Shown one piece after another: positions 2,784 through 24,913 of a stretch of DNA of 37,471 nt. Origin of the DNA: a bacterium (lineage in GTDB: Bacteria; Latescibacterota; UBA2968). The notes below the pieces were generated by a model. The model was not told the DNA's origin. It saw only the letters and a list, made by a program, of their open reading frames with translations, and searched no databases. The stretch is from NCBI GenBank assembly GCA_027296045.1, contig JAPUJS010000154.1, forward strand, positions 1-37,471. Direction: 5' to 3'. The first letter of the stretch is position 1. Each line of letters opens with the position of its first letter. The position numbers were made by a program, and so were the translations under genes.

Positions 2784-2879
2784 TTCATTTCCCAAGCAAG
2801 CCTCCAACGGTTGTTCTTCCACAGCCACAAATCACACAGTCATTTCTCTTAACCCCAGAAGGAAGGAATTCATATTCTT

Positions 2880-3848
2880 ATGAAAGCCATTCGCGTTCAC
2901 CAGACAGGCGGTCCCGAAGTCCTCACACTCGATGATATCCCCACACCCGAACCCGGTGCGGGCGAAGTCCTGGTCAAAATCGAAGCCGCCGGATTGAACT
3001 TTATCGACACCTACCACCGCACCGGCCTCTATCCCCTGGACCTGCCAATCCCTCTTGGCCTGGAAGGATCCGGGATAGTGGAAGCCGTTGGCACCGATGT
3101 AGGGGATTTGCAAATCGGCGATGCGGTTGCCTGGAGCAGCATTGCGGGTTCTTATGCCGAATACATCGCCGCTCCGGAAGAAAGCGTGGTCAAACTGCCC
3201 GAAGGCGTAGCAACCAAATCCGGTGCGGCCGTTATGCTCCAGGGCATGACCGCCCATTATCTGGCCCACAGCACCTACCCCCTCAAGGAAGGGGACACCT
3301 GCCTCATCCATGCTGCCGCCGGCGGTGTGGGCCTGCTTTTGGTTCAGATGGCCAAAAAATGCGGTGCCAGAGTCTTTGGCACCACCTCCACACCCGAGAA
3401 AGCCGATCTGGCCAAAGGGGCTGGGGCAGACGAAATCATCCTGTATACCGAACAGGACTTTGAAGCCGAAGTCCAGCGTCTTACAGACGGACAGGGCGTG
3501 AATGTCGTCTACGACTCGGTGGCCAAAGCCACCTGGGAGAAAAGCATCAACTCGCTTCGCCCCAGAGGCTACATGGTCTTTTTTGGCAATGCCAGTGGAC
3601 CGGTCCCCCCCATCGATCCCCTTCTTCTGAGCCAAAAAGGCTCCATCTTTGTCACCCGTCCAACCCTGGGACATTACACGGCCACCCGGGAAGAATTCCT
3701 GAGTCGGACCCAGGACATCTTCTCGTGGATTCAATCGGGCCAACTGAACGTCCACATCGGAGAAGAGCACCCCCTGGAACAGGCAGCCGAAGCACACCGA
3801 AGGCTGGAAGGCCGTCAGACAACCGGAAAAGTGCTGATTATTCCATAA
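2880..3848 (+). CDS. qor: NADPH:quinone oxidoreductase (zeta-crystallin / MDR family)
   Basis: 322 aa. The N-terminus MKAIRVHQTGGPEVL...AAGLNFIDTYHRTGLYP...LGLEGSGIVEAVG closely parallels E. coli Qor. It has an AAGGVG nucleotide-binding motif and the C-terminal TGKVLIIP. SD AAGGAAGGAA lies upstream. Confidence 0.9.
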   Translation: MKAIRVHQTGGPEVLTLDDIPTPEPGAGEVLVKIEAAGLNFIDTYHRTGLYPLDLPIPLGLEGSGIVEAVGTDVGDLQIGDAVAWSSIAGSYAEYIAAPEESVVKLPEGVATKSGAAVMLQGMTAHYLAHSTYPLKEGDTCLIHAAAGGVGLLLVQMAKKCGARVFGTTSTPEKADLAKGAGADEIILYTEQDFEAEVQRLTDGQGVNVVYDSVAKATWEKSINSLRPRGYMVFFGNASGPVPPIDPLLLSQKGSIFVTRPTLGHYTATREEFLSRTQDIFSWIQSGQLNVHIGEEHPLEQAAEAHRRLEGRQTTGKVLIIP

Positions 3849-3856
3849 AAGCAAAG

Positions 3857-4021
3857 GCGGGATCACAGAACTCCACCCCGCCCCCAAACCCCTCACACGA
3901 ATCAGCACGAAAAACACGAAACCCCACACCGCTCCCGGATGGGAGAAGGTGGTGGGGTTTCGTGTTTTTCGTGAGGTGGAAGGGTGACCAGGAGGGGTTT
4001 CGTGGCCCTCTGTGATCCCGC
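3857..4021. repeat. Compound rod-like inverted repeat (~165 nt, four nested helices)
   Basis: Read directly from the sequence. Outer 13-bp helix: 3857-3869 GCGGGATCACAGA with 4009-4021 TCTGTGATCCCGC. Middle 9-bp helix: 3886-3894 AAACCCCTC with 3992-4000 GAGGGGTTT. Inner perfect 22-bp helix: 3906-3927 CACGAAAAACACGAAACCCCAC with 3952-3973. Apical 5-bp hairpin: CTCCC-GGAT-GGGAG (3932-3945). The motif GGGGTTTCGTG occurs twice (3954-3964, 3994-4004) and its complement once (3915-3925). Confidence 0.8.
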
Positions 4022-4852: not shown

Positions 4853-5854
4853 ATGCCGATTTTTACCTCGCGATTTTCGCCAGAAAGATCGCTGCTCGGG
4901 ACCTTTCTATCTACTCGCTCCCAGCGGGAAACAGAAAAGCGCCAGCGGACCGAATCTGACCCGCAGGCTCAGAACAGGCCCCAGGTCGATCGCCTCGAAC
5001 TGAGCGACCGCCCCGGTGAACGCACCGCTGAAGTGCGGACAACCCAGGTCCCCGAAACAGTCAATCGGGAAACCCAGGATGTACAGGTGCGGGTTTCCGA
5101 CAGCCGTTCCTTTGCGCAGCAGCTGCGCTTAAGACGGGCGGCCCAGGAAGCCGTCGAAGAGCTGCAAGAGCCTGACGCGTCCACCCCACCCCCTGAGCCC
5201 ACTGTGACCGCACCACGTTCTGCGGCCGAATTCAGGCTCCGCATCCGTCAGGAAAACCAGGCCTCCGTACAGAGTGCTGCACCCGACCGCCTGGAAGGGT
5301 TTCTGAACGGCCTCACGGCCTTCCAGAATATCAGCACGGCCATCCTGGAAGAGAATCGGGCTGCCAGCGAAACAGCTGCTCCCGAACGCCTGGAAGCCCT
5401 CTTTGGCACCCCCATTAATGAAGCCCCAACAGCAGAAGCCGTGGAACCGCCTCCTGAAACGCCTGTCGAAAACACAGCGGTTCGAGAAGCAAACACCCTG
5501 GCCGTTCCACTACAACTCTCTTCGGAGCCGCCTTCCTTAAACGATCAACAGGAAGCGCTCCGTGAAGATTTGCGAACCATTGCCAATGGTCTGCGCACCG
5601 ACGCCGCGATTGAAAATCGAATCAACGTCGAACAAACTGCCCAGACGACTGCAAGGGCTTCCCGGCAGCAGCAGCGCCAGGAGGTTCAGGACAACCAGAA
5701 CGAGATTCGGTCGCTCCAGTCTTCGCGCCGACAGGTGCAGCAGGAAATCCAGCAGACCGATCAGGCCATCCGACAGCTGCAAAACCGAAACGCGCGGCTT
5801 CAGAACAGTCAATTTTCTGGCTCCGGATCGTCCCTCGACATCCTGGCCCAGTAA
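4853..5854 (+). CDS. Hypothetical low-complexity protein with Gln-rich C-terminal coiled coil
   Basis: 333 aa, rich in E/Q/R/T/A/P. It has an internal repeat AAPDRLEGF / AAPERLEAL, and its C-terminal ~70 aa look heptad-like (QQQRQEVQDNQNEIRSLQSSRRQVQQEIQQTDQAIRQLQNRNARLQ). There is no signal peptide and no clear SD, so the start is uncertain. Confidence 0.45.
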   Translation: MPIFTSRFSPERSLLGTFLSTRSQRETEKRQRTESDPQAQNRPQVDRLELSDRPGERTAEVRTTQVPETVNRETQDVQVRVSDSRSFAQQLRLRRAAQEAVEELQEPDASTPPPEPTVTAPRSAAEFRLRIRQENQASVQSAAPDRLEGFLNGLTAFQNISTAILEENRAASETAAPERLEALFGTPINEAPTAEAVEPPPETPVENTAVREANTLAVPLQLSSEPPSLNDQQEALREDLRTIANGLRTDAAIENRINVEQTAQTTARASRQQQRQEVQDNQNEIRSLQSSRRQVQQEIQQTDQAIRQLQNRNARLQNSQFSGSGSSLDILAQ

Positions 5855-6677: not shown

Positions 6678-7424
6678 CTAAATCACCACCTCCTGTAACA
6701 CGCCCCGCATGTCCATTTCGTATTCGATCTCCACAATCGGTGGACGGGCGTGATACCAACGAATACCGTGTCGAGCGGCTTCTCCTATGCGCTTTAGCAC
6801 CAGATCTTCTACCAGCCCTTCCACTGCATGCACGGTATAAATATTGACTGCCGTCATCAAATCCCAACTCCCGCCAAGCCCCAGCAAGCGTTTTTCCATC
6901 ACATCAACTACATAAGCCGCCTTCTCCCGCATCGCCTCTTCAGAAGTCTCTCCGCGCCGAATGATGGCTTCGCGAACCAGTTTTGGAGAATCCAGTTCCC
7001 CGCCCCCTGCGATCACCACGGTCTTTCGACTGCTCTTGGTAGGCACAGTATACGAAAACCCGTACAAGACCGGCTCACGGACCTTCTCAAAAGCGGGAGA
7101 GACATTGGTTCGTGCCACCGGATTGACGCCGTCGACATACAGCTCCCACGCCTCGAGCATAGCACAATAATCCCGGTTAAATGCAATAAACCCATCCATC
7201 GAATAAGGGGTTGGGCAACGCAACTCGATACCACAGAGTACTGCTCGGTCCCGACCGATTGCGTTCAAATAGGAATCGATTCGTTCAAACCCTTCCCGCC
7301 AGGGCAAAACCTGTTCCAAAACGGCGTGTACGATCTCAAACCCGGGCTGTGCAATTGCGCCGCTCGAATAAGGCGCAATCCCTTTCAAAAACAGATAATG
7401 TCCATTTTTATTTTCAATAAGCAT
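6678..7424 (-). CDS. Conserved hypothetical protein with a RidA/YjgF-like C-terminal signature
   Basis: The ATG at 7424 is preferred (GGAAAGGGG upstream) over the TTG at 7451. The C-terminus (MTAVNIYTVHAVEGL...RWYHARPPIVEIEYEMDMRGV) resembles the RidA pattern (...vyl.d...f...PaR..v.v..LP.g.lvEie). At ~248 aa it is about twice the length of a canonical RidA. Function unknown. Confidence 0.5.
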   Translation of the reverse strand: MLIENKNGHYLFLKGIAPYSSGAIAQPGFEIVHAVLEQVLPWREGFERIDSYLNAIGRDRAVLCGIELRCPTPYSMDGFIAFNRDYCAMLEAWELYVDGVNPVARTNVSPAFEKVREPVLYGFSYTVPTKSSRKTVVIAGGGELDSPKLVREAIIRRGETSEEAMREKAAYVVDVMEKRLLGLGGSWDLMTAVNIYTVHAVEGLVEDLVLKRIGEAARHGIRWYHARPPIVEIEYEMDMRGVLQEVVI

Positions 7425-7504
7425 CCTCGAACCCCTTTCCAACAGAATCAACCTGGCTGTAGTCTGCCTTCCTTAAATTGCCGGGAACGATATCGACCGG
7501 GGCA

Positions 7505-17384: not shown

Positions 17385-17905
17385 AAGAAAAGATTGAAAT
17401 TCTCCAGGGAGACATCACCCAACTATCCGTAGATGCCATTGTCAATGCCGCCAACACATCCTTGCTCGGGGGCGGGGGCGTCGACGGCGCCATTCACCGG
17501 GCGGCAGGACCAGCGCTTCTGGAAGAATGCCAGACACTTGGGGGCTGTGCTACGGGAGAAGCCAAAATCACCGGGGCATACAATCTCCCTGCCCGATACG
17601 TCATCCACACCCCCGGCCCCATCTGGCGGGGCGGACAAAACAACGAAGATTGCCTTCTGGCCAACTGCTATCAAAACAGCCTGTCTCTGATCACACAACA
17701 TCCTATCCAGACCATCGCCTTCCCCTCCATCAGCACGGGCATCTATGGATTTCCAGTAGACCGCGCCTGTCGCATTGCCCTGAAGGAAATTTGGGGCTTC
17801 CTTCAACATCATTATAATCTGCAAAAAGTCACCATCGTCTGTTTCTCCCCGGATGTGTACCACGCCTATATGCAGGCTCTCCAGGAAATCGACACTCAGG
17901 AATAA
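17381..17905 (+). CDS. Macro domain protein (O-acetyl-ADP-ribose deacetylase, YmdB-like)
   Basis: The ATG at 17381 overlaps the ATPase stop (ATGA). [43 protein letters not shown] is the classic macrodomain signature. Also present: ...HTPGPIW.. and [12 protein letters not shown]. Confidence 0.85.
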
Positions 17906-17909
17906 ACCG

Positions 17910-18710
17910 ATGGTACTGACCTCACAGCAAGTCCAACAGTTCCAAAGAGAAGGCTACACCGCCGTATCCAACCTTTTTCCCGATCGCGAAATTCAGGCGA
18001 TGCGGGCCGAACTAAACCGTTTTAAACGCGAAGGCCTGCTGCGCAACGTGGCCACCGACGGCGACGGAGAAACCCACTCCACCGCCCAGATCAACCTGCA
18101 GATCTGTCCGATTACACCCCAAAGCACGTTCTATCGCGCCTTTCATTTTCACCCCAAAGTCATCGAAGCCATATCCCAGTTGATCGGCACTCCATTTGTG
18201 TTCTACCTCGACCAGATCTTCCTCAAACCTGGCAAACAGGGAATGGGTACAAGCTGGCACCAGGACAATGCGTATTTCAAAGTAGACGACCCCACCAAAG
18301 GCACTGCCATGTGGGTTGCCCTGCACGATGCAACCCTGGAAAATGGCACTCTGCACGTGGTGCCCGGCAGTCACGCCGAAGCCTTCTCACACGGCAGAGA
18401 TCCCAACAGCGACCATCACATCCGCTGCCAGGTCCCCGAAGAACGGGCGGTCCCTATCGAACTCAAAGCTGGCGGGGCAGCCTTCTTTAACTTCGGCACC
18501 GCCCATTCCACCAAAGCCAATACAACCGACCGGGAACGAGCAGGCCTCGCCCTCCATTTTTTGCGCACCGATCATATTCCACCGGAAAGCAAGAACCGGA
18601 ACACTGCGCACCTTACCGGCCCGCTGGCCACGGGGGGGGGAAAAGAATATGGGACCCAGGTTGAAGGCACCTGGGAAGCCGAAGTCGACCGCCTGCTCGC
18701 AGGACCCTGA
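17910..18710 (+). CDS. Phytanoyl-CoA dioxygenase (PhyH) family Fe(II)/2-oxoglutarate oxygenase
   Basis: The ATG at 17910 gives MVLTSQQVQQFQREGY, a typical PhyH N-terminus. WHQD contains the His-x-Asp iron motif, followed by GTLHVVPGSH and a distal His (GTAHST). Confidence 0.8.
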   Translation: MVLTSQQVQQFQREGYTAVSNLFPDREIQAMRAELNRFKREGLLRNVATDGDGETHSTAQINLQICPITPQSTFYRAFHFHPKVIEAISQLIGTPFVFYLDQIFLKPGKQGMGTSWHQDNAYFKVDDPTKGTAMWVALHDATLENGTLHVVPGSHAEAFSHGRDPNSDHHIRCQVPEERAVPIELKAGGAAFFNFGTAHSTKANTTDRERAGLALHFLRTDHIPPESKNRNTAHLTGPLATGGGKEYGTQVEGTWEAEVDRLLAGP

Positions 18711-18795: not shown

Positions 18796-20169
18796 TTGAG
18801 CGCCACATTCTTACCCATAGGCACCACCGATGAAATCGGAGATGCCTGTTATCTGCTCACCCTGAACGGCACCACACTGATGCTGGATGCCGGTGTGCAC
18901 CCCCAAAAAGAAGGCTGGAAAAGCATTCCCGAGTTTCATCTGGCCGAAGGGCGAGATATCGACGCCATTCTCATCTCGCATTGCCACCTGGATCACCTTG
19001 GCGCCCTCCCCATTGCCCTGGCCCATTTCCCGCACGCCAGTGTCCTGATGTCCGAAGCCTCCGCCGTTCTGGCCCCCGTCATGCTCCATCACACCGCAAG
19101 CGTGATGCACCGTCGCCAGGCCGACGGGGCCTCCGAGGCACCCCTGTATACCCACGACCAGATCGACCTGATCGACTATGTCTTCCAGGGCATGAAACCC
19201 CATCAACCCTTCCCCGTTTTCAACCTGGACAAATGGGACAACGATCTACAGGCACAATTTTTTGACGCCGGACACATCCTGGGCGCCTCGGGCATCTGGA
19301 TCCAGGGGCCTGAAACCACCGTTTTCTATACAGGCGACACGGCCTACCACGAACAGGAAATTCTCCCGGGTGCCAAATATCCTGAAGGCCTCGTAGATGT
19401 CTTGATTACCGAATCCACACTGGGCGCCGATCCCAGTGCCGAAAACAACAGACGCAAAGATGTGGTACAGCACTTTGCCCGGTCGATTACCGAAGTCGTC
19501 CAGCGAGATGGAAATGTCCTGATTCCCGCCTTCTCCCTGGGACGAACCCAGGAAATGCTCGCAACCCTCCACCGACTTCGAAACGAAGATCAGATCCCCG
19601 ATGTGGATATCTACACCGCCGGCTTTGGAGACGTCGTATCCAACCTCTACGACCGGACCGTCAAATATACCCGACGACGAGATCCCGATCTGCGATTGAA
19701 AAATCTGGACATCCTGTCCCTGCCTCCTGGCGACGTGCGAAGGGGAGCCCATTTGAGCCGCCCCAGCATCATCCTGGTCTCCTCGGGCATGATGACGGAA
19801 GGCACCATGTCTTACCGCCTGGCAGAGGTGATGCTGCCAGACCCCCGTCACGGCATCTTTTTTGTCGGTTATGTCGATCCGGATATGCCGGGCTATCAAA
19901 TCCTGGCACACAAAAATGAAGAAACCCTTCAACTGGTCCCGGAAGGGCCGGATATCCCGGTCGAATGCACCGTCCAGAGATTCCACTTTTCGGCCCATTC
20001 ACACCGCCGTCACCTCCTGCATCTGGTGGATCGCCTGAGCCCCCGCCAGGTCATCCTGATCCACGGCGAACGGGGCGCTGAAGGCTGGTTGCGGGAATCC
20101 ATCCAAAACCAGCACCCTGAAATCGACGTCGTCATTGGCGAAAAAGGTCGGGAAATCTCAATCGGCTAA
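18796..20169 (+). CDS. MBL-fold beta-CASP family metallo-hydrolase (putative ribonuclease)
   Basis: HCHLDHLGALP (the HxHxDH motif), DAGHILGAS, and the C-terminal FHFSAHSHRRHLLHLVDRLSPRQVILIHGE, typical of beta-CASP/RMMBL proteins. TTG start as in the ORF track. Confidence 0.85.
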   Translation: MSATFLPIGTTDEIGDACYLLTLNGTTLMLDAGVHPQKEGWKSIPEFHLAEGRDIDAILISHCHLDHLGALPIALAHFPHASVLMSEASAVLAPVMLHHTASVMHRRQADGASEAPLYTHDQIDLIDYVFQGMKPHQPFPVFNLDKWDNDLQAQFFDAGHILGASGIWIQGPETTVFYTGDTAYHEQEILPGAKYPEGLVDVLITESTLGADPSAENNRRKDVVQHFARSITEVVQRDGNVLIPAFSLGRTQEMLATLHRLRNEDQIPDVDIYTAGFGDVVSNLYDRTVKYTRRRDPDLRLKNLDILSLPPGDVRRGAHLSRPSIILVSSGMMTEGTMSYRLAEVMLPDPRHGIFFVGYVDPDMPGYQILAHKNEETLQLVPEGPDIPVECTVQRFHFSAHSHRRHLLHLVDRLSPRQVILIHGERGAEGWLRESIQNQHPEIDVVIGEKGREISIG

Positions 20170-20175
20170 TCCACA

Positions 20176-20207
20176 GAAAAAACCGGCAATCAGGTGGGTT
20201 GCCGGTC
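20176..20207 (-). terminator. Rho-independent terminator candidate ending the 23558-20246 operon
   Basis: Stem ACCGGCAA (20182-20189) / TTGCCGGT (20199-20206). On the - strand it is followed by TTTTTT (plus-strand A run 20177-20182). Confidence 0.6.
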
Positions 20208-20245
20208 CAAACGCATCGATTTAAAGCTGTCCGAGTTGGGTGCTC

Positions 20246-20536
20246 TTATTCCACAGTCACGCGCATTTTCTGAAACCGCTCCATCACCACAATATCCGCC
20301 CAGGAAATCCGCTTTTTCCCCCGCCCCTCTGTTGTCACAATCACTTCCTGATCGTCTACACGAATGAGGATGCCCCGCACCTTGGCCCCGTCTTTGGAGG
20401 AGATCTGAACCTGATCGCCCACCTTGAGCTGATTCGGGGATCGGATCACCTCGTAATAGGTGTACGAATACGGCCGATCACACCCTGCCTCAAAAACGCA
20501 CGCCATCATCAAAACCGCAAAAACCCATCGCATCAT
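20246..20536 (-). CDS. Small lipoprotein (96 aa), function unknown
   Basis: The ATG at 20536 overlaps the upstream TGA (ATGA), with GGGAGGG ~10 nt upstream. MMRWVFAVLMMACVFEAGC is a signal plus lipobox-like cysteine. The remainder looks like a small beta-rich domain. Confidence 0.6.
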   Translation of the reverse strand: MMRWVFAVLMMACVFEAGCDRPYSYTYYEVIRSPNQLKVGDQVQISSKDGAKVRGILIRVDDQEVIVTTEGRGKKRISWADIVVMERFQKMRVTVE

Positions 20537-21441
20537 GAAGATCTTCCCTCCCGTCGAATTTGTGCCGAATACACTGGCAACCGGGCAACCGGACGAAACT
20601 TTTGTTTGAACTGCCTCAATCCGGGAAGCCCCAGATCTCCGGCATCGTTCACCCACCGATAGTCTCCAAATGCCCGATAAACCTGCCATCTCAAATATTC
20701 AGATAATCCCAAAACGTCCGGATCGGTCTTGGCCACGAAAAAATTCGCCAGATCCTCCTGCATCCGCCCCCCCAGCGCGAAGGCCCGCACTTCTCCTTCC
20801 AGGTCTACACACCAGCCTTGCAAATCCTCCCGGTCCCACATGTCAAACCGATCCAGGGCCGCTTTTGTATATCCCCAGTCCAGCAAAAACGGATGCCGAC
20901 GCCCCTGCCGTTTGCGCCAGTGCTTCAAAAGCCGCTGGCAGGCCTCCAGGTCGCCAATGTCCAGACATCGAAACGTTGCCCGATAGGTTCTTTGAAATTT
21001 CCGAAGGCGCTTGCGCAGATCCCGATATCCACTGCCCAAAGCGGCAACCACCCTGGCGGGCTCATAAAGATATTCCCGTTCTTTTTCCTCAACCTGTCCC
21101 AATGACGGGGCGATCTGCCGGGCATCTTCCTCGTCCATCCATAAAATACGAAAAAGAGAGTCTTCATTTTTTTTCCCCAAAACCTCCCGAAAAGCCGAGA
21201 GAGCTTCGGTGGAGAATGGGAGGGGAGGCACCATTAAATCAATCCGTCCGTGCCGAATCACCAGGATAAAAAGCGCATTGGCCCATCGGGCCACCCGAAC
21301 CTCCCGTCCGGGCGGCAAACTGAAGCAATGCATAAAAGGCGCATAATAACACCACGCACGCTTGCCCCGAAATGCCGCTTTTAACATGGTGCTGTGCTCG
21401 GGGCCGATGGGCTCGGAGTCAAAGGGCAAATCAACGTCCAT
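20533..21441 (-). CDS. Stand-alone DUF2156 protein (MprF C-terminal aminoacyl-phosphatidylglycerol synthase-like, GNAT-like fold)
   Basis: The ATG at 21441 has GGAGG 4-5 nt upstream. The segments EREYLYEP...LGSGYRDLRKRLRKFQRTY...L and DAGDLGLPGLRQFKQKFRPVARLPVY match the DUF2156 pattern as I remember it (dYiY...L.G.+y+.kRn.in.F...y ; ...eGLr.fK.sf.P). Confidence 0.7.
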   Translation of the reverse strand: MDVDLPFDSEPIGPEHSTMLKAAFRGKRAWCYYAPFMHCFSLPPGREVRVARWANALFILVIRHGRIDLMVPPLPFSTEALSAFREVLGKKNEDSLFRILWMDEEDARQIAPSLGQVEEKEREYLYEPARVVAALGSGYRDLRKRLRKFQRTYRATFRCLDIGDLEACQRLLKHWRKRQGRRHPFLLDWGYTKAALDRFDMWDREDLQGWCVDLEGEVRAFALGGRMQEDLANFFVAKTDPDVLGLSEYLRWQVYRAFGDYRWVNDAGDLGLPGLRQFKQKFRPVARLPVYSAQIRREGRSS

Positions 21442-22486
21442 CACGCCTCCGGGACCGCTTGAGATCGGCGGTGTACAGATCGCCCGTATAGGTCCCCACA
21501 ATCGCCGGCTTGGGTGCCGATGTGGTGACAGTCCGGATCATCTGGCTGACGCCCCCTAGGACTTGAGCCCCCACATAGGCATTGAAGTTCGGCAGCATTT
21601 CCAACGGTGCCAGCCCCATGTCGGTTAGCGACCGGATTGCCTCGGCCGTTTCGGTCGGTGTGCGTCGGCCAAAACAAATAAAGCCTTGTTTGCCAACCTC
21701 TTCTCTAAGCCCTGTGATCCCTCGGGAGACAAAGAGGTTCAATCCTTCAAGTGTGTAGGGCGGATCGGTCAAAAAAACGTCAAACTGTTCGACCCATTCA
21801 GCAGGCACCTCTTCCCGAAGATCGTGTGCAACCACTTCCAGGCCGTGTCCCATTTCTTTGCCAAGCCGTTTGAGAAAATCTACCAGACGCCGGTCAAACT
21901 CCAGCACGACCAGACGCCTCGTACGAAATTCCAAATAGTTGGCCAACAGCCCCACCGCAAGGGACGTCAAATCGTCGTCTCCCAAAATCAACACGTCCCG
22001 GCCTTCCAACGCGTCGTGTTCATAGAGATATACCGCACGTCGCAATGCAGTCTCCGGCGTTGCATGCGACTGATCCAGCCGAACCTCCACCTTGGGTCTC
22101 CGATCACAAATCAGGGCCATCTGCCCACACAGATCTTTCAAATCTTCGGGCAAGTCTGGGAAATTCGGGCGGAGAAACTGCCGTCGGCTTGACAGGCCCA
22201 GAGTCTCGCTCACCAGGCGTTCGCCGTCTTCGCTAAGTGCAACGCCCCCTCGCCGCGTGAGCATCCCCAGTTTTTCCAGTTCCCCTCTCACCGCCGCCAC
22301 CACCGGCACGGGCAACCCAACCTGCTGGGCAAGGGACCGAATCGGAAGCGACCCTTCCAGAAAAACGGTTCTCAAAATGAGGCGCACCCCTTCAGGCCCT
22401 TCTGCCAGACGAGCACCCGTGGCCACCTCGTCCAGAATCGGCCGAACCAGTTTAGGAGGTTTCCGTCTCAGTCTCAGTTTCGCCAT
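21431..22486 (-). CDS. BpsA-like (DUF43) aminopropyl/methyl-transferase-fold protein with a winged-helix-like N-terminal domain
   Basis: ILGDDDLTSLAV and VFLTDPPYTLEG are the hallmark DUF43 / N4-bis(aminopropyl)spermidine synthase motifs. The N-terminus (LPIRSLAQQVGLPVPVVAAVRGELEKLGMLTRRGG) looks like a wHTH. The start is taken at ATG 22486 (MAKLRLRRKPPK), with AGGAAG just upstream. Confidence 0.7.
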   Translation of the reverse strand: MAKLRLRRKPPKLVRPILDEVATGARLAEGPEGVRLILRTVFLEGSLPIRSLAQQVGLPVPVVAAVRGELEKLGMLTRRGGVALSEDGERLVSETLGLSSRRQFLRPNFPDLPEDLKDLCGQMALICDRRPKVEVRLDQSHATPETALRRAVYLYEHDALEGRDVLILGDDDLTSLAVGLLANYLEFRTRRLVVLEFDRRLVDFLKRLGKEMGHGLEVVAHDLREEVPAEWVEQFDVFLTDPPYTLEGLNLFVSRGITGLREEVGKQGFICFGRRTPTETAEAIRSLTDMGLAPLEMLPNFNAYVGAQVLGGVSQMIRTVTTSAPKPAIVGTYTGDLYTADLKRSRRRDGR

Positions 22487-23558
22487 ATGCTTCCTGTTTG
22501 TGTCCCAGATCGCCCGGCGTCTGCCTGTCCAGGAGATTATCGCCATCTTTGCGATATCGCAAAATCACATAGATCAAACTGATCCCCGAAGCATAGACCG
22601 CTTGCCAGTATGCAAGCAAGATGCCCGAAATGCCCACCAGCATCAAACCCAAAATACGGCCGGCCCAGATTTCCGACCAGGTCAAACTTCCAGGCACGGG
22701 TAAGTTTCCGATAATCGCATCCCATCCCTTGGGTTTATAAAACAGATACTTACCTGCCAGATCGAACAGATCGGCCAGTTTGTCCCCCATAAACAGGCCA
22801 CAAGCCGCCGTAATCAACCAGAGCGCCCCCATGGTAAACGCCCCCAGAAGCACCACACCCACCCCGGCGATGACGTTCAACCAGACCGTATACAACACCA
22901 TCCGCCAGGGCTGGCTCCAGGCCAATGAAAAGGACTCGATCACCACTTCCAATGCGCCATCTCCGACCGACCCAACCACCGCCGGAGACATCAGGAGAGA
23001 CACGACAAAAACGACGGCCACAAAAACAGCCACCAGCGCCACAAAAAAGATCGGGATGAAAAACAACGCAAAAAAGACTTCTCCCACAACCGGAATCCAA
23101 TTACCGAGCCAGCCAATCAGAATGCCCCCGATAACAAATAAAAGGAATAGGATAAGCACTGCAACCGGACCAAGCAGAACTTCTGCCCAGTGCCTTTTGG
23201 CAAACCGCCAGGCATCTCCAGATGAAAAAAAGTCATCTCCCTGGATTTTCTGAAAGTTGATTTTGCAAATCATACTGGTGGAGATAAAAAAAACACACAG
23301 CGCGAAGATCATCCCCAGGCCGTGCAAACAGGTGCCCAACACCCCGAATTCTCCAAACACGGCACCGGGAAACAACCCATAGCGATGCCAGAGCTGGCTT
23401 AGCGTCGTACCATCCAACAAATGGGCAAGCCCCACCAAAATTGCGTACCCTGCATAGGCCACCACCAGACCCCGGAAGCCCACCCAGATCTTTTTTCCCG
23501 ACCAGCCAAGGCGAATGGATTGAAACAAATCGCGAATGTCAAAATACAGCGGTTTCAT
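22452..23558 (-). CDS. Polytopic inner-membrane protein (about 8-9 predicted TM segments), family unknown
   Basis: 368 aa with many long hydrophobic stretches (e.g. VAVLILFLLFVIGGILIGWL, FFIPIFFVALVAVFVAVVFVVSLL, NVIAGVGVVLLGAFTMGALWLITAACGLF). It ends in an acidic tail, ...GETETETETS. GGAGG lies 7 nt upstream of the ATG. Confidence 0.75.
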   Translation of the reverse strand: MKPLYFDIRDLFQSIRLGWSGKKIWVGFRGLVVAYAGYAILVGLAHLLDGTTLSQLWHRYGLFPGAVFGEFGVLGTCLHGLGMIFALCVFFISTSMICKINFQKIQGDDFFSSGDAWRFAKRHWAEVLLGPVAVLILFLLFVIGGILIGWLGNWIPVVGEVFFALFFIPIFFVALVAVFVAVVFVVSLLMSPAVVGSVGDGALEVVIESFSLAWSQPWRMVLYTVWLNVIAGVGVVLLGAFTMGALWLITAACGLFMGDKLADLFDLAGKYLFYKPKGWDAIIGNLPVPGSLTWSEIWAGRILGLMLVGISGILLAYWQAVYASGISLIYVILRYRKDGDNLLDRQTPGDLGHKQEAYGETETETETS

Positions 23559-23627
23559 GATCTGCCTCCAGGCGAATAACAGTCTTTGCTAAAACCATTC
23601 ACAGATTTAGAAAAATTAGAACGTTAC

Positions 23628-23663
23628 GCCGATTATCATGCATAATCAGGCGATGAAAGTCAA
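23628..23663 (-). promoter_or_regulatory. Weak promoter candidate with an operator-like inverted repeat upstream of the 4-gene operon
   Basis: The - strand reads TTGACT (23663-23658) followed 18-20 nt later by ATGATAAT, so the spacing is suboptimal. The inverted repeat GATTAT-N5-ATAATC (23631-23647) overlaps the -10 region. Confidence 0.3.
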
Positions 23664-23672
23664 GAATTAAGC

Positions 23673-23720
23673 AAAAAAAAACCGCTGCCCGAGTTGGGCA
23701 GCGGTTGCAAAAAAAATAAA
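23673..23720 (-). terminator. Strong (bidirectional) rho-independent terminator after the 183-aa gene
   Basis: A perfect 11-bp stem AACCGCTGCCC (23680-23690) / GGGCAGCGGTT (23696-23706) is flanked by an A9 run and A/T-rich runs. On the - strand it reads hairpin followed by TTTTTTTTT. Confidence 0.85.
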
Positions 23721-23725
23721 ATCCG

Positions 23726-24277
23726 TCAATCTTGACCTTCGGGTTTCAACACCTGGTGAACCTGGCCGATAAAATTCTGAAGCGGCACCTGCAAAACCTG
23801 GCCTGGTACCGGTTTGCTTCGAATCGTCTGTGGAATGGGTGTCACACCCGGGTGCATTCGCACATGTTTGGCCCCATCTTCCCCTTCCTGCACCCCATAA
23901 CACCCCTGTCCAAGCCCCATCGGCCAGGGAGAACCCTGAGCGTCGGGTTCGGAAAGAAACACCACCATCTCCTGTCCAGCGACAAACCGGGGCACGCCGT
24001 GAACCACCAGACGATTTTCGCCAACCTTTCCCCCTGGAAGGGTCAACACAATTTCTGTCTCCACCTCGCCTTTAATCGGCTGTAAGACCTTTAACCGGGT
24101 CCGGGTAAAGATGCCGTCTTGCGCCTGAAAACTTTCGCTCGTTTCACACCGGACATAAGCAATGGTTTTGGCCTGTTGGCAAAGCGTATCAAATGGAAAG
24201 GTCACGACCGTCGTGGCTTCGACTTGAAAACCGATCAGGACAAGCGCCCATCCCAAAATAACAATGTGTCTGAACAT
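23726..24277 (-). CDS. Secreted hypothetical protein (183 aa)
   Basis: Signal peptide MFRHIVILGWALVLIGFQVEA. No recognisable domain. Immediately downstream of the FliL-like gene on the same strand. Confidence 0.6.
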   Translation of the reverse strand: MFRHIVILGWALVLIGFQVEATTVVTFPFDTLCQQAKTIAYVRCETSESFQAQDGIFTRTRLKVLQPIKGEVETEIVLTLPGGKVGENRLVVHGVPRFVAGQEMVVFLSEPDAQGSPWPMGLGQGCYGVQEGEDGAKHVRMHPGVTPIPQTIRSKPVPGQVLQVPLQNFIGQVHQVLKPEGQD

Positions 24278-24355: not shown

Positions 24356-24913
24356 TCACTGGAGCACAAAACTCGGGAAATAAATTTCTACAATGGCATT
24401 TTCGCCCAGAAATTCATTCAGGCGCTCTCTAATCTCTTCCTTTAGCGTCGGATGATTGATCGGATCCAGTTGTGGGATGGTCTTGCTCGACAAGATTCCG
24501 ACCAGTGTATCGTTTATTTTGGGAATCAAATTGTTGTTTTCAATAAAAAGAGACACCTCCGACCCCGAAATCCCAAAATCCACCTTCGCACTCAAAAAAC
24601 GCAACCCTTCCGGGCCGGCCGGATTCACCACAATGATATCCAACTGTTGGAATACTTCAGTCACACGTGGCAGCGGCGGTTGTCCGACCATAGCTTCTTT
24701 GGTCACCTCCACCGGCACGTCCTCTTCCACCATTTCTTCCCCTTCCTCCGATGGCGAAAAAAGCAGTGTCACCAACACATATCCGATAATCACCTGAACA
24801 ACCAGTACGCCCCCAATCAGCGGTAGATATTTTAAAAGCGGACTGCCACCACCTTCCCCTTCTTCTTCTTCGCCCAGTTCATCCATCGACTCAAGTAGCT
24901 CTTCATCGGCCAT
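24356..24913 (-). CDS. FliL-like (flagellar basal-body-associated protein family) single-pass membrane protein
   Basis: An acidic N-terminus and one TM segment (LPLIGGVLVVQVIIGYVLVTLLF), then VFQQLDIIVVNPAG..GLRFLSAKVDFGIS......IPKINDTLVGILSSKT..QL......LKEEIRERLNEFLGENAIVEIYFPSFVLQ. This follows the FliL pattern (f.vNl....ryl.v.i.l....l....p.ird.i...ls.k....l....lk.ei...ln..l....v..v.ft.fviQ). Confidence 0.6.
   Translation of the reverse strand: MADEELLESMDELGEEEEGEGGGSPLLKYLPLIGGVLVVQVIIGYVLVTLLFSPSEEGEEMVEEDVPVEVTKEAMVGQPPLPRVTEVFQQLDIIVVNPAGPEGLRFLSAKVDFGISGSEVSLFIENNNLIPKINDTLVGILSSKTIPQLDPINHPTLKEEIRERLNEFLGENAIVEIYFPSFVLQ

What the first reader, a model, noticed from the sequence alone, without database searches (positions are those of the whole stretch)
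20176..23663. Overlapped four-gene envelope operon: polytopic membrane protein, wHTH/BpsA-like (DUF43) transferase, stand-alone DUF2156 (MprF-synthase-like) and a small lipoprotein
Seen in the sequence: four - strand ORFs are chained by start/stop overlaps of 35 nt, 11 nt and 4 nt (ATGA). Each has its own SD inside the preceding gene. A strong terminator (23673-23720) isolates the operon upstream, and a hairpin plus U-run (20176-20207) closes it. The two central proteins carry clear family motifs: GDDDLTS and TDPPYT for DUF43/BpsA, and EREYLYEP...YRDLRKRLRKFQRTY with GLPGLRQFKQKFRP for DUF2156.

Established knowledge: BpsA is the dcSAM-dependent N4-bis(aminopropyl)spermidine synthase that makes branched polyamines in Thermococcus kodakarensis and some thermophilic bacteria. 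DUF2156 is the aminoacyl-tRNA-dependent synthase domain of MprF, where it is fused to a multi-TM flippase domain.

Inference: this looks like a split MprF-like arrangement (separate membrane protein plus soluble DUF2156) with a polyamine-type transferase inserted and a lipoprotein appended. It could make and export a polyamine- or aminoacyl-decorated lipid or envelope molecule. I am not aware of a described pathway that combines these families. It is the best candidate in this window for an undescribed system.
Basis: partly seen in the sequence, partly recalled or inferred. Interest (0 to 1): 0.7.

Follow-up and report, generated by a model that had tools for sequence, protein, structure and literature searches.

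The report
Polyamine aminopropyltransferase paired with tRNA-type transferase
A tightly packed four-gene operon whose conserved core is an undescribed pairing (sometimes a fusion) of a branched-polyamine-type aminopropyltransferase with a soluble MprF-like aminoacyl transferase, probably making a modified polyamine in uncultured mesophilic bacteria such as Latescibacterota and deep-ocean SAR202.

Summary
Four minus-strand genes overlap by 35, 11 and 4 nt and sit between a strong upstream terminator and a modest downstream one. Gene 2 is a full-length BpsA-family protein (PF01861, 4.5e-47). Gene 3 is a stand-alone DUF2156 protein (PF09924, 1.7e-20).

The "split MprF" reading fails. The membrane protein matches no solved fold, including the MprF flippase. 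Its family also occurs without the pair in Marinimicrobia.

The conserved unit is genes 2+3. They are adjacent in 73 of 73 loci (Latescibacterota, SAR202). In Armatimonadota and other Latescibacterota a SAM decarboxylase gene sits between them. Elsewhere they are fused into one chain, flanked by SAM decarboxylase and a gene of the phosphorylase family that includes MTA phosphorylase.

This supports dcSAM-dependent aminopropyl transfer coupled to an acyl or aminoacyl transfer. The most likely product is an N-aminoacylated polyamine, though this is inferred. In Latescibacterota the membrane protein and lipoprotein may export or place it.

No paper in the searched library links these families. 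A 2026 review states that BpsA is confined to thermophiles.

Verdict: an undescribed variant of polyamine metabolism, product unknown.

The parts
23635..23663 (-). Sigma-70-like promoter candidate (TTGACT-17-CATGAT) about 75 nt upstream of g1
   Evidence: Found by the consensus scan. Such sites are no more frequent here than in shuffled sequence, so this is only a candidate. It lies just downstream of the terminator of the preceding gene.
23680..23706 (-). Intrinsic terminator of the upstream 183-aa gene; it marks the 5' boundary of the operon
   Evidence: 11-bp stem with 8 G-C pairs plus a T-run. -22.3 kcal/mol, z = -6.9, 0 of 200 shuffles as stable.
22452..23558 (-). g1: polytopic membrane protein, 368 aa, about 6-7 long helices, acidic C-terminal tail; family without a name
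   Evidence: - No Pfam or NCBIfam hit.
- Hydrophobic segments found.
- AF2 model has pLDDT 84.9 and no PDB fold match.
- Adjacent to the pair in all Latescibacterota/'Gemmatimonadota' loci carrying the g1-g2-g3 arrangement and in Handelsmanbacteria (43% identity).
- Lies apart from the pair in Marinimicrobia.
- Conserved motifs: FDIRD, GDDFYSSGDA, SQPWR, LIYVILRKKKDDENLLE.
21431..22486 (-). g2: BpsA-family (PF01861) aminopropyltransferase homolog, 351 aa, with N-terminal wHTH-like domain, GDDD and DPPY motifs and a basic C-terminal tail
   Evidence: - PF01861 at 4.5e-47.
- PDB matches: 2qm3 at 7e-38, Tk-BpsA 5xnc at 4e-31, Tt-BpsA 6j27 at 3e-26.
- Motifs invariant across the clade: LDQSH, GDDDL.S, TDPPYT, FN.Y.GA, C-terminal YT.
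- Relatives are adjacent or fused to AdoMet_dc, and some lie next to a PNP_UDP_1 (MTA phosphorylase family) gene.
20533..21441 (-). g3: stand-alone soluble DUF2156 protein: two GNAT folds joined by a positively charged helix (the dGNAT-alpha(+) architecture), 302 aa
   Evidence: - PF09924 at 1.7e-20.
- AF2 model has pLDDT 91.7.
- Foldseek: 2hqy TM 0.80-0.83; MprF synthase domains about 0.65; aa-tRNA-dependent peptide synthases Sba18/Sbb17 and FemX about 0.58.
- A basic helix at residues 137-152 lies between the two GNAT halves.
- Lies immediately downstream of g2 in 73 of 73 loci.
- Fused to a BpsA-like domain in P0379 and P0384.
20246..20536 (-). g4: small lipoprotein, 96 aa, with an SH3/Sm-like beta domain; present only in part of the Latescibacterota
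   Evidence: - N-terminal hydrophobic segment.
- 33 of 33 homologs keep a signal peptide plus [AGS]-Cys.
- Weak sub-threshold hits to the RimP C-terminal SH3 domain (9e-4) and to LSM.
- Found in roughly 33 of about 49 Latescibacterota-type loci and in no SAR202 locus.
20176..20207 (-). Hairpin plus U-run; probable operon terminator
   Evidence: 10-bp stem followed by UUUUUU. -14 kcal/mol and z = -1.4, so it is modest. The next gene (beta-CASP RNase, 18796-20169) is on the other strand and converges on it.

Best explanation
**Core unit.** The functional unit is a two-enzyme cytoplasmic module, g2 plus g3.

**g2.** It is a BpsA-family aminopropyltransferase. It takes the aminopropyl group of decarboxylated SAM, releases MTA, and puts the group on an amine nitrogen.

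**g3.** It is a soluble tandem-GNAT transferase of the DUF2156 family. All studied members of that family move an aminoacyl group from aminoacyl-tRNA onto a hydroxyl or amine.

**Product.** Together they most likely build a tailored polycation: an aminopropylated polyamine carrying an N-aminoacyl group (less likely another N-acyl group). The order of the two steps is unknown.

**Envelope genes.** In Latescibacterota the pair is co-transcribed and translationally coupled with a polytopic membrane protein (g1). In many members a small lipoprotein (g4) follows. These probably export, anchor or use the product in the envelope.

**Shown here.**
- The family and fold assignments.
- The strict gene linkage and the gene fusions.
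- The recurrent linkage of the clade to SAM decarboxylase and to a gene of the MTA phosphorylase family.

**Inferred.**
- dcSAM as donor for this particular protein.
- Aminoacyl-tRNA as donor for g3.
- A polyamine as the shared substrate.
- Any role of g1 and g4.
For: **Gene linkage.**
- g2 lies directly upstream of g3 in 73 of 73 loci that have upstream DNA. These span Latescibacterota/'Gemmatimonadota' and SAR202/Dehalococcoidia MAGs at 34-60% g3 identity.
- The same pairing occurs in Handelsmanbacteria and in TARA marine contigs.

**Gene fusion.** P0379 (713 aa) and P0384 (702 aa) carry BpsA_C, a zinc ribbon and DUF2156 in one chain. Loci L134 and L160 show the same single ORF.

**dcSAM chemistry.**
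- An AdoMet_dc gene sits between the two genes in L089, L094, L095, L096 and L109.
- AdoMet_dc follows the fusion gene in L134 and L160, where a PNP_UDP_1 (MTA phosphorylase family) gene precedes it.
- 25 of 78 BpsA-like loci carry AdoMet_dc within 5 kb. Xenorhabdus and Vagococcus have BpsA::AdoMet_dc fusions.
- g2 keeps the GDDD motif, which holds the dcSAM aminopropyl group in Tk-BpsA. It also keeps the equivalents of D225 and Y290 (PMC12979288).

**g3 as an aminoacyl-tRNA transferase.**
- PF09924 membership.
- The predicted fold has two GNAT halves joined by a strongly basic helix, YRDLRKRLRKFQRTYR. This is the hallmark of these transferases (PMC6103681; PMC13219428).
- Its structural neighbours include Sba18/Sbb17, which were solved in complex with the small-molecule amine streptothrisamine.

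**A soluble acceptor is plausible.**
- g2 and g3 have no hydrophobic segments.
- The pair often occurs with no membrane gene.
- The MprF catalytic domain alone does not make lipid in vivo (PMC8131360).
Against: - No product, substrate or donor has been measured for any member of this clade.
- g2 lacks the acidic C-terminal cluster that carries the aminopropyl group in Tk-BpsA. Its tail is basic, the E259 equivalent is Thr, and the last 45 residues do not align. Its mechanism or acceptor may therefore differ from BpsA.
- The invariant DPPY motif is also typical of N-methyltransferases.
- No SAM decarboxylase, spermidine synthase or other polyamine gene was identified among the window genes scanned. 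This covers 19 ORFs by Pfam, with the others assigned by synteny. None is called in the gene lists of the near relatives examined.
- A pattern scan for AdoMet_dc found none in genomes with the g1-g2-g3 arrangement. The patterns were narrow, so this is uninformative.
- g3 could use acyl-CoA rather than aa-tRNA, since the fold alone cannot decide.
- The envelope genes g1 and g4, and the MlaEFD genes next to the pair in Handelsmanbacteria, would fit a lipid acceptor.
- A rough NJ tree does not place all DUF2156-linked BpsA-like genes in one clade.
Confidence: 0.45

Rival explanations
1. Split MprF-like lipid system. g3 aminoacylates a membrane lipid from aa-tRNA. g2 aminopropylates the new amino group to give a polycationic head group. 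g1 flips it, and g4 receives it in the periplasm.
For: - PF09924 is the MprF synthase family.
- g1 and g4 are envelope proteins translationally coupled to the pair in Latescibacterota.
- MlaE/MlaF/MlaD lipid-transport genes follow the pair in Handelsmanbacteria.
- Fatty-acid synthesis genes lie near the pair in SAR202 and near g1 in Marinimicrobia.
Against: - g1 has no fold similarity to the MprF flippase or to any solved structure.
- g1 occurs without the pair.
- The pair occurs without any membrane gene in SAR202, Armatimonadota, other Latescibacterota and the fusion loci.
- g3 is closest to the soluble protein 2hqy. A profile of its family does not reach MprF by sequence.
- An MprF catalytic domain without its membrane subdomain does not make lipid in vivo (PMC8131360).
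Confidence: 0.15
2. Polyamine synthesis plus acyl-CoA-dependent N-acetylation or N-acylation. g3 acts as an ordinary GNAT, like SpeG or SSAT. It neutralises or marks the g2 product for export or homeostasis, and no tRNA is involved.
For: - g3 has a tandem GNAT fold. Foldseek also finds AcCoA-binding tandem GNATs (2wpw/2wpx) and other acetyltransferases.
- One source names a homolog 'GNAT family N-acetyltransferase' (P0086).
- An acetylated branched polyamine exists in T. kodakarensis. The review names only a speculative deacetylase candidate and no acetyltransferase (PMC12979288).
Against: - Every characterised PF09924 member named in the papers read here uses aminoacyl-tRNA (PMC6103681; PMC13219428).
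- g3 keeps the basic inter-GNAT helix that binds the tRNA acceptor stem.
- Its better structural matches are aa-tRNA transferases.
Confidence: 0.2
3. Macromolecule modification. The pair decorates a protein, a ribosomal component or a cell-wall precursor, in the manner of L/F-transferase, Fem ligases or hypusine-type modification. It does not make a free metabolite.
For: - Related soluble DUF2156 proteins (25-35% identity to g3) are fused to RsgA GTPase, RimK-type ATP-grasp, Mur-ligase, PGA_cap and Ser/Thr kinase domains.
- FemX and L/F-transferases share the fold.
- g2 has a wHTH-like N-terminal domain.
- tRNA-Cys and tRNA-Val genes follow the module in L134 and L160.
Against: - The fusions belong to paralogous subfamilies, not to orthologs of g3.
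- The wHTH-like domain is part of every BpsA, including enzymes that act on free spermidine.
- No candidate target gene is conserved next to the pair.
Confidence: 0.07
4. The four genes are merely neighbours with unrelated functions.
For: - The g1 and g4 distributions differ from that of the pair.
- The surrounding genes are housekeeping genes in conserved order.
Against: For g2 and g3 this is excluded by three findings: 73 of 73 adjacency across phyla, their fusion into single proteins, and the insertion of AdoMet_dc between them. For g1 and g4 it remains possible.
Confidence: 0.03

Closest known systems
BpsA, N4-bis(aminopropyl)spermidine synthase (EC 2.5.1.128; Thermococcus kodakarensis 5xnc, Thermus thermophilus 6j27)
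   Same: - Same Pfam family and the same two-domain architecture over almost the full length.
- GDDD motif, the DPP aspartate (D225) and the NFN.Y tyrosine (Y290) are kept.
- The clade is linked to SAM decarboxylase, as expected for a dcSAM enzyme.
   Different: - No acidic C-terminal carrier cluster. The tail is basic and ends after an invariant YT.
- The E259 equivalent is Thr.
- DPPY replaces DPPE (Tk) or DPVE (Tt).
- Found in uncultured lineages from non-thermal samples (TARA ocean, deep Lake Baikal, ALOHA). A 2026 review states that BpsA is confined to thermophiles (PMC12979288).
- Always partnered with DUF2156. The six Methanothermococcus BpsA loci examined have no such partner.
MprF / aminoacyl-phosphatidylglycerol synthases (4v34, 4v36, 7duw)
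   Same: g3 belongs to the same Pfam family as the cytosolic synthase domain and shares its tandem-GNAT fold with a basic helix.
   Different: - g3 is not fused to a membrane domain, and g1 is not a flippase homolog.
- TM-score to MprF synthase domains is only about 0.65 at 12-16% identity.
- A profile of the g3 family does not reach MprF by sequence.
- The partner is a polyamine enzyme, not a lipid enzyme.
2hqy, stand-alone DUF2156 protein of Bacteroides thetaiotaomicron (function unknown)
   Same: Best structural match (TM 0.80-0.83) and the only real sequence match in the PDB (1e-18 with the family profile). It is also soluble and about 300 aa.
   Different: Only 17-18% identity. The clade-specific motifs of g3 (LLDWGYT, NDAGD) are not shared. 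Its gene neighbourhood was not examined here.
aa-tRNA-dependent peptide (amide) synthases on small-molecule amines: Sba18/Sbb17 (9wqy, 9wqw) and Orf11 of streptothricin-type pathways; also FemX
   Same: Same tandem-GNAT fold (TM about 0.58). Sba18 and Sbb17 are deposited as aa-tRNA-dependent peptide synthases in complex with the amine streptothrisamine. This is a precedent for the kind of N-aminoacylation proposed for g3 on a polyamine (Orf11 in PMC6103681).
   Different: They belong to a different family and sit in antibiotic gene clusters of actinomycetes. None is linked to aminopropyl transfer.

Membership tests
BpsA (branched-chain polyamine synthase, PF01861) | BpsA_C Rossmann-type catalytic domain plus N-terminal domain | tested here: met
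   PF01861 at 4.5e-47, 160.8 bits against a cutoff of 27. Residues 16-306 align with 2qm3, and residues 57-306 with Tk-BpsA.
BpsA (branched-chain polyamine synthase, PF01861) | GDDD motif, whose D159/D160 hold the aminopropyl group of dcSAM | tested here: met
   g2 has GDDDLTS aligned to Tk G157-D160. G-D-D and the following L and S are invariant, and the third D is nearly invariant, in 16 clade members. The motif's role is taken from PMC12979288.
BpsA (branched-chain polyamine synthase, PF01861) | Acidic C-terminal cluster (E339, D342, D343, E344, E345) that carries the aminopropyl group in the ping-pong mechanism | tested here: not met
   The g2 tail is ...GTYTGDLYTADLKRSRRRDGR. Tails across the clade are basic or absent, and the last 45 residues do not align with Tk-BpsA.
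BpsA (branched-chain polyamine synthase, PF01861) | Residues that activate the acceptor amine: D225, E259, Y290, Y316 | tested here: inconclusive
   D225 (in the DPP motif) and Y290 (in NFNAY) are kept. E259 aligns with Thr. Y316 lies outside the alignable region.
BpsA (branched-chain polyamine synthase, PF01861) | Uses dcSAM and makes N4-aminopropylated spermidine | not testable with these tools
   Support comes only from gene context: AdoMet_dc adjacent or fused, and a PNP_UDP_1 gene in relatives. The acceptor and product are unknown.
MprF / aaPGS lipid aminoacylation system | PF09924 synthase domain with two GNAT folds joined by a positively charged helix | tested here: met
   PF09924 at 1.7e-20. 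The model has pLDDT 91.7. Its strands and helices form two GNAT halves with the basic helix 137-152 between them. Foldseek matches 4v35, 4v36, 5vrv and 7duw.
MprF / aaPGS lipid aminoacylation system | Membrane flippase domain, fused or as a separate homolog | tested here: not met
   The g1 model has no MprF hit among its PDB matches; the best match has TM 0.2 and E = 0.02. There is no Pfam or NCBIfam hit. The pair occurs without g1 in other phyla.
MprF / aaPGS lipid aminoacylation system | Aminoacyl-tRNA donor and a phosphatidylglycerol (lipid) acceptor | not testable with these tools
   Needs an enzyme assay. The lack of a membrane anchor and the polyamine-enzyme partner argue against a PG acceptor, but this is inference.
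Bacterial lipoprotein (g4) | Signal peptide followed by a lipobox cysteine | tested here: met
   Hydrophobic N-terminus. Cys preceded by A, G or S in 33 of 33 homologs. The window copy has Glu at -3, which is unusual.

The most novel reading that the evidence does not exclude
The pair defines an undescribed class of metabolite: a polyamine built by BpsA-type aminopropyl transfer and decorated through aminoacyl-tRNA (an aminoacyl-polyamine), or a polyamine-bearing envelope molecule. It would be made in mesophilic, mostly uncultured phyla, including the abundant deep-ocean SAR202 group. This would give tRNA-dependent aminoacyl transfer a role in polyamine metabolism. It would also show that BpsA-type chemistry is not a thermophile speciality. 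In Latescibacterota a new membrane protein family (g1) and a lipoprotein (g4) would form its export or placement route.
Probability: 0.35. Interest if true: 0.8.

Novelty: new variant of a known kind. Interest (0 to 1): 0.66.

Why it matters
- **A testable new module.** Both enzyme families are known. Their obligate pairing and fusion are not described in the searched literature. That gives a defined two- or three-gene module (BpsA-like, SpeH, DUF2156) that can be synthesised and assayed.
- **A function for orphan proteins.** If the module makes an aminoacylated or otherwise acylated polyamine, it would give a function to the large orphan group of soluble DUF2156 proteins. The 2hqy structure has been unexplained since 2006.
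- **A new acceptor class.** It would extend tRNA-dependent aminoacyl transfer from lipids, cell wall and antibiotics to polyamines.
- **A challenge to current thinking on BpsA.** A 2026 review states that BpsA-type enzymes are confined to thermophiles. Here homologs with the GDDD motif and a SAM decarboxylase partner occur in Latescibacterota, SAR202, Bathyarchaeota, Armatimonadota, Actinomycetota and even Xenorhabdus.
- **Ecology.** For SAR202 and Latescibacterota, which have no cultures that I know of, it points to an unrecognised polycation in cell physiology or the envelope.

Tried and rejected
- **g1 identity.** Pfam and NCBIfam gave nothing, even at E up to 5. Foldseek against the PDB gave only noise. 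The family remains unnamed.
- **Sequence link from g3 to MprF structures.** The family profile reached only 2hqy; the other hits were low-complexity noise. Only fold comparison links g3 to MprF.
- **Does a genome with the g1-g2-g3 arrangement encode SAM decarboxylase?** The first alignment was too divergent to scan. The second scan used two narrow peptide patterns and returned 80 of 89 relatives, none from those genomes. I treat this as uninformative, not as absence.
- **RNA elements.** An Rfam scan of the window and six related loci found no riboswitch or T-box. It found tRNA-Cys and tRNA-Val genes after the module in L134 and L160. Their shared synteny makes this weak evidence.
- **Monophyly of DUF2156-linked BpsA-like genes.** A rough NJ tree puts them in three groups rather than one clade. 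I make no monophyly claim.
- **Catalytic residues of aaPGS.** The primary structure paper (PNAS 2015) is not held. I therefore could not map its residues onto g3.
- **Rejected: the pair as a chance neighbourhood.** See rival 4.
- **Rejected: g2 as an ordinary methyltransferase.** The GDDD motif and the SAM decarboxylase and phosphorylase contexts argue for dcSAM, although the DPPY motif leaves a small doubt.

Full report
**1. The observation**

The window carries four minus-strand ORFs.
- g1: 23558-22452, 368 aa.
- g2: 22486-21431, 351 aa.
- g3: 21441-20533, 302 aa.
- g4: 20536-20246, 96 aa.

With these starts the overlaps are 35, 11 and 4 nt, and each start is preceded by an SD-like purine run. 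For g2 a longer ORF begins at 22546, but it has no SD. The conserved part of the protein starts after the 22486 start.

The upstream hairpin (23706-23680, then a T-run) is a strong terminator: -22.3 kcal/mol, z = -6.9. The downstream hairpin (20207-20176, then UUUUUU) exists but is modest: -14 kcal/mol, z = -1.4.

**2. What the genes are**

*g2.* It matches PF01861 BpsA_C at 4.5e-47. It aligns over nearly its full length with 2qm3 and with the solved BpsA enzymes of T. kodakarensis and T. thermophilus. The N-terminal wHTH-like part is therefore simply part of the BpsA architecture.

According to a 2026 review (PMC12979288), BpsA is defined by three features:
- a GDDD motif that holds the aminopropyl group of dcSAM;
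- acceptor-activating residues D225, E259, Y290 and Y316;
- an acidic C-terminal cluster that carries the aminopropyl group in a ping-pong mechanism.

g2 keeps GDDD, D225 and Y290. It has Thr at the E259 position. Its C-terminal tail is basic rather than acidic and does not align. So g2 is a BpsA-family member but not a proven BpsA.

*g3.* It matches PF09924 at 1.7e-20. Its AlphaFold model has pLDDT 91.7 and shows two GNAT halves joined by a very basic helix, YRDLRKRLRKFQRTYR. Papers describe this as the signature of aminoacyl-tRNA transferases (PMC6103681; PMC13219428).

Foldseek ranks the matches as follows:
- the soluble Bacteroides protein 2hqy, TM 0.80-0.83;
- MprF synthase domains, TM about 0.65;
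- the aa-tRNA-dependent peptide synthases Sba18/Sbb17 and FemX, TM about 0.58.

*g1.* It has no Pfam or NCBIfam match. Its model (pLDDT 84.9) matches no solved structure, and the MprF flippase is not among the hits.

*g4.* It is a lipoprotein. All 33 homologs keep a signal peptide and an [AGS]-Cys site.

**3. Which parts belong together**

The window most resembles Latescibacterota MAGs, and its gene order is shared with complete genomes of that phylum.

In 76 loci found with a g3 profile, g2 lies directly upstream of g3 in all 73 that have upstream DNA. These loci are Latescibacterota/'Gemmatimonadota' and SAR202/Dehalococcoidia.

g1 is present in every Latescibacterota-type locus and in Handelsmanbacteria (43% identity). 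It is absent from every SAR202 locus. In Marinimicrobia its homologs (about 33% identity) lie next to a SPOR-domain gene and the fatty-acid synthesis cluster, with no BpsA or DUF2156 gene nearby. g4 occurs only in part of the Latescibacterota.

The invariant unit is therefore g2+g3.

**4. Evidence on chemistry from relatives**

A scan for BpsA-like genes found 258 relatives. I annotated 78 loci with my own HMMs. Four arrangements include DUF2156:
- g1, BpsA-like, DUF2156 (Latescibacterota);
- BpsA-like, DUF2156 (SAR202);
- BpsA-like, AdoMet_dc, DUF2156 (a second Latescibacterota lineage L095/L096, Armatimonadota L109, and metagenome contigs L089 and L094);
- one fused BpsA::DUF2156 gene followed by AdoMet_dc and preceded by a PNP_UDP_1 gene, the family of MTA phosphorylase (L134, L160).

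An exhaustive profile search found the fusion independently. P0379 (713 aa) and P0384 (702 aa) read as BpsA-like, zinc ribbon, then DUF2156.

Many other lineages have BpsA-like plus AdoMet_dc without DUF2156: Bathyarchaeota, Chloroflexia, Omnitrophota and Actinomycetota. Xenorhabdus hominickii and a Vagococcus MAG have BpsA::AdoMet_dc fusions. The six Methanothermococcus loci have neither partner.

SAM decarboxylase makes dcSAM, and MTA is the by-product of aminopropyl transfer. These contexts and the GDDD motif therefore support dcSAM-dependent aminopropyl transfer for the clade. The fusions and the strict adjacency show that DUF2156 works on the same pathway.

**5. Most likely mechanism**

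g2 aminopropylates an amine using dcSAM. g3 transfers an aminoacyl group, most likely from aminoacyl-tRNA, onto the same molecule. The result would be a tailored polycation such as an N-aminoacyl polyamine.

The family, fold, linkage, fusion and dcSAM context are shown. The donor of g3, the acceptor, the order of steps and the roles of g1 and g4 are inferred.

A soluble acceptor is favoured for three reasons. The enzymes have no membrane segments. The pair often has no membrane partner. An isolated MprF catalytic domain does not make lipid in vivo (PMC8131360).

In Latescibacterota, translational coupling to g1 and g4 suggests the product goes to the envelope.

**6. Rivals**

(a) A lipid pathway, with aminoacyl-lipid then aminopropylation and flipping by g1. 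The envelope genes and the MlaEFD genes beside the pair in Handelsmanbacteria favour it. The lack of any flippase similarity and the membrane-free versions of the module weaken it.

(b) g3 as an acyl-CoA GNAT that acetylates the polyamine. An acetylated branched polyamine is known in T. kodakarensis, and the review names no acetyltransferase for it. However, the characterised PF09924 members named in the papers read here all use aa-tRNA, and the basic helix is kept.

(c) Modification of a protein or cell-wall precursor. Paralogous soluble DUF2156 proteins are fused to RsgA GTPase, RimK-type ATP-grasp, Mur-ligase, PGA_cap and kinase domains. These are only 25-35% identical to g3.

(d) Chance adjacency. 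This is excluded for g2-g3 and remains possible for g1 and g4.

**7. Comparison with what is known, and novelty**

Searches for DUF2156 or PF09924 together with BpsA or polyamine returned no paper. A further search on BpsA homologs, mesophiles and gene clusters also turned up none describing the pairing.

[quoted passage not shown] The homologs here come from uncultured lineages recovered from non-thermal samples such as TARA ocean, deep Lake Baikal and ALOHA.

I file this as a new variant of a known kind. The enzyme families are known, but their combination and its predicted product class are undescribed.

**8. Limits**

- No chemistry was measured.
- No SAM decarboxylase was identified among the window genes scanned. 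The one scan aimed at the Latescibacterota genomes with this arrangement was too narrow to be informative.
- The tree is a rough NJ tree and does not show a single DUF2156-linked clade.
- E-values from the search for related loci are relative to the candidate stretches only.

Noticed in passing
window 1-37471: GC skew is negative in every 1-kb bin (-0.06 to -0.25; cumulative -6 over 37 kb), whichever strand the genes are on. This is an unusually strong and uniform strand bias.
   Followed up: no
window 23726-24277 (-): A 183-aa secreted protein with no Pfam or NCBIfam hit lies directly upstream of the operon and has its own strong terminator. Homologs (44-56% identity) hold the same position in most of the Latescibacterota-type loci, between the CCA-adding enzyme gene and g1.
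   Followed up: partly
window 24356-24913 (-): A FliL gene (PF03748, 1.7e-13) sits between the CCA-adding enzyme gene and the 183-aa gene. No other flagellar gene appeared among the ORFs I scanned. The same placement is seen in L012, L036, L055 and L082.
   Followed up: no
window 18796-20169 (+) and 17853-18710 (+): A beta-CASP metallo-beta-lactamase RNase converges on the operon. It has sub-threshold NCBIfam similarity to archaeal aCPSF1 (7.6e-57) and to type VII CRISPR Cas14 (3.7e-53), both far below the curated cut-offs. A PhyH dioxygenase gene lies next to it. This pair is conserved next to the operon in several Latescibacterota loci (L015, L024, L043, L056, L086, L088).
   Followed up: partly
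P0361-P0459 (proteins): Soluble DUF2156 domains related to g3 (25-35% identity) occur in multi-domain proteins: Mur_ligase_M+DUF2156; two or three DUF2156 repeats plus a RimK/ATP-grasp domain; PGA_cap+2xDUF2156+RimK; RsgA GTPase+DUF2156; and Ser/Thr kinase+DUF2156. These architectures suggest amide-bond or polymer chemistry. I did not see them described in the papers I read.
   Followed up: partly
L172 5007-6530 (Xenorhabdus hominickii DSM 17903) and L165 4959-6521 (Vagococcus MAG): A single ORF matches both BpsA_C and AdoMet_dc. Pfam confirmed this only for L172, where a Cys-rich linker and an upstream TetR regulator gene are also present. L165 rests on my own HMMs. L172 comes from a cultured mesophile that could be tested for branched polyamines.
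   Followed up: partly
L097, L118, L120, L121, L123, L125, L126 (Bathyarchaeota): BpsA-like genes (41-43% identity to the bacterial query; some related proteins in this group carry a C-terminal zinc ribbon) are always followed by AdoMet_dc. This shows BpsA-family genes in a largely non-thermophilic archaeal phylum, which is at odds with the stated confinement of BpsA to thermophiles.
   Followed up: partly
L134 7934-8088 and L160 7548-7704: tRNA-Cys(GCA) and tRNA-Val(GAC) genes lie directly after the BpsA::DUF2156 fusion and AdoMet_dc genes in both fusion loci. The fusion proteins represent different 50%-identity clusters. This may be inherited gene order, or it may hint at the aminoacyl donor.
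   Followed up: partly
L008/L009 6051-6977 and most of the SAR202 loci inspected (e.g. L065 4077-4988): In most of the SAR202 loci I inspected, an NAD-dependent epimerase/dehydratase-family gene (PF01370) sits directly upstream of the BpsA-like/DUF2156 pair, where g1 sits in Latescibacterota. It is missing in L067, L069, L070 and L072.
   Followed up: partly
window 2832-3929 (-), 4853-5854 (+), 6678-7451 (-): Three ORFs of 257-365 aa have no Pfam hit at E <= 1e-4. I did not check whether they are real genes.
   Followed up: no
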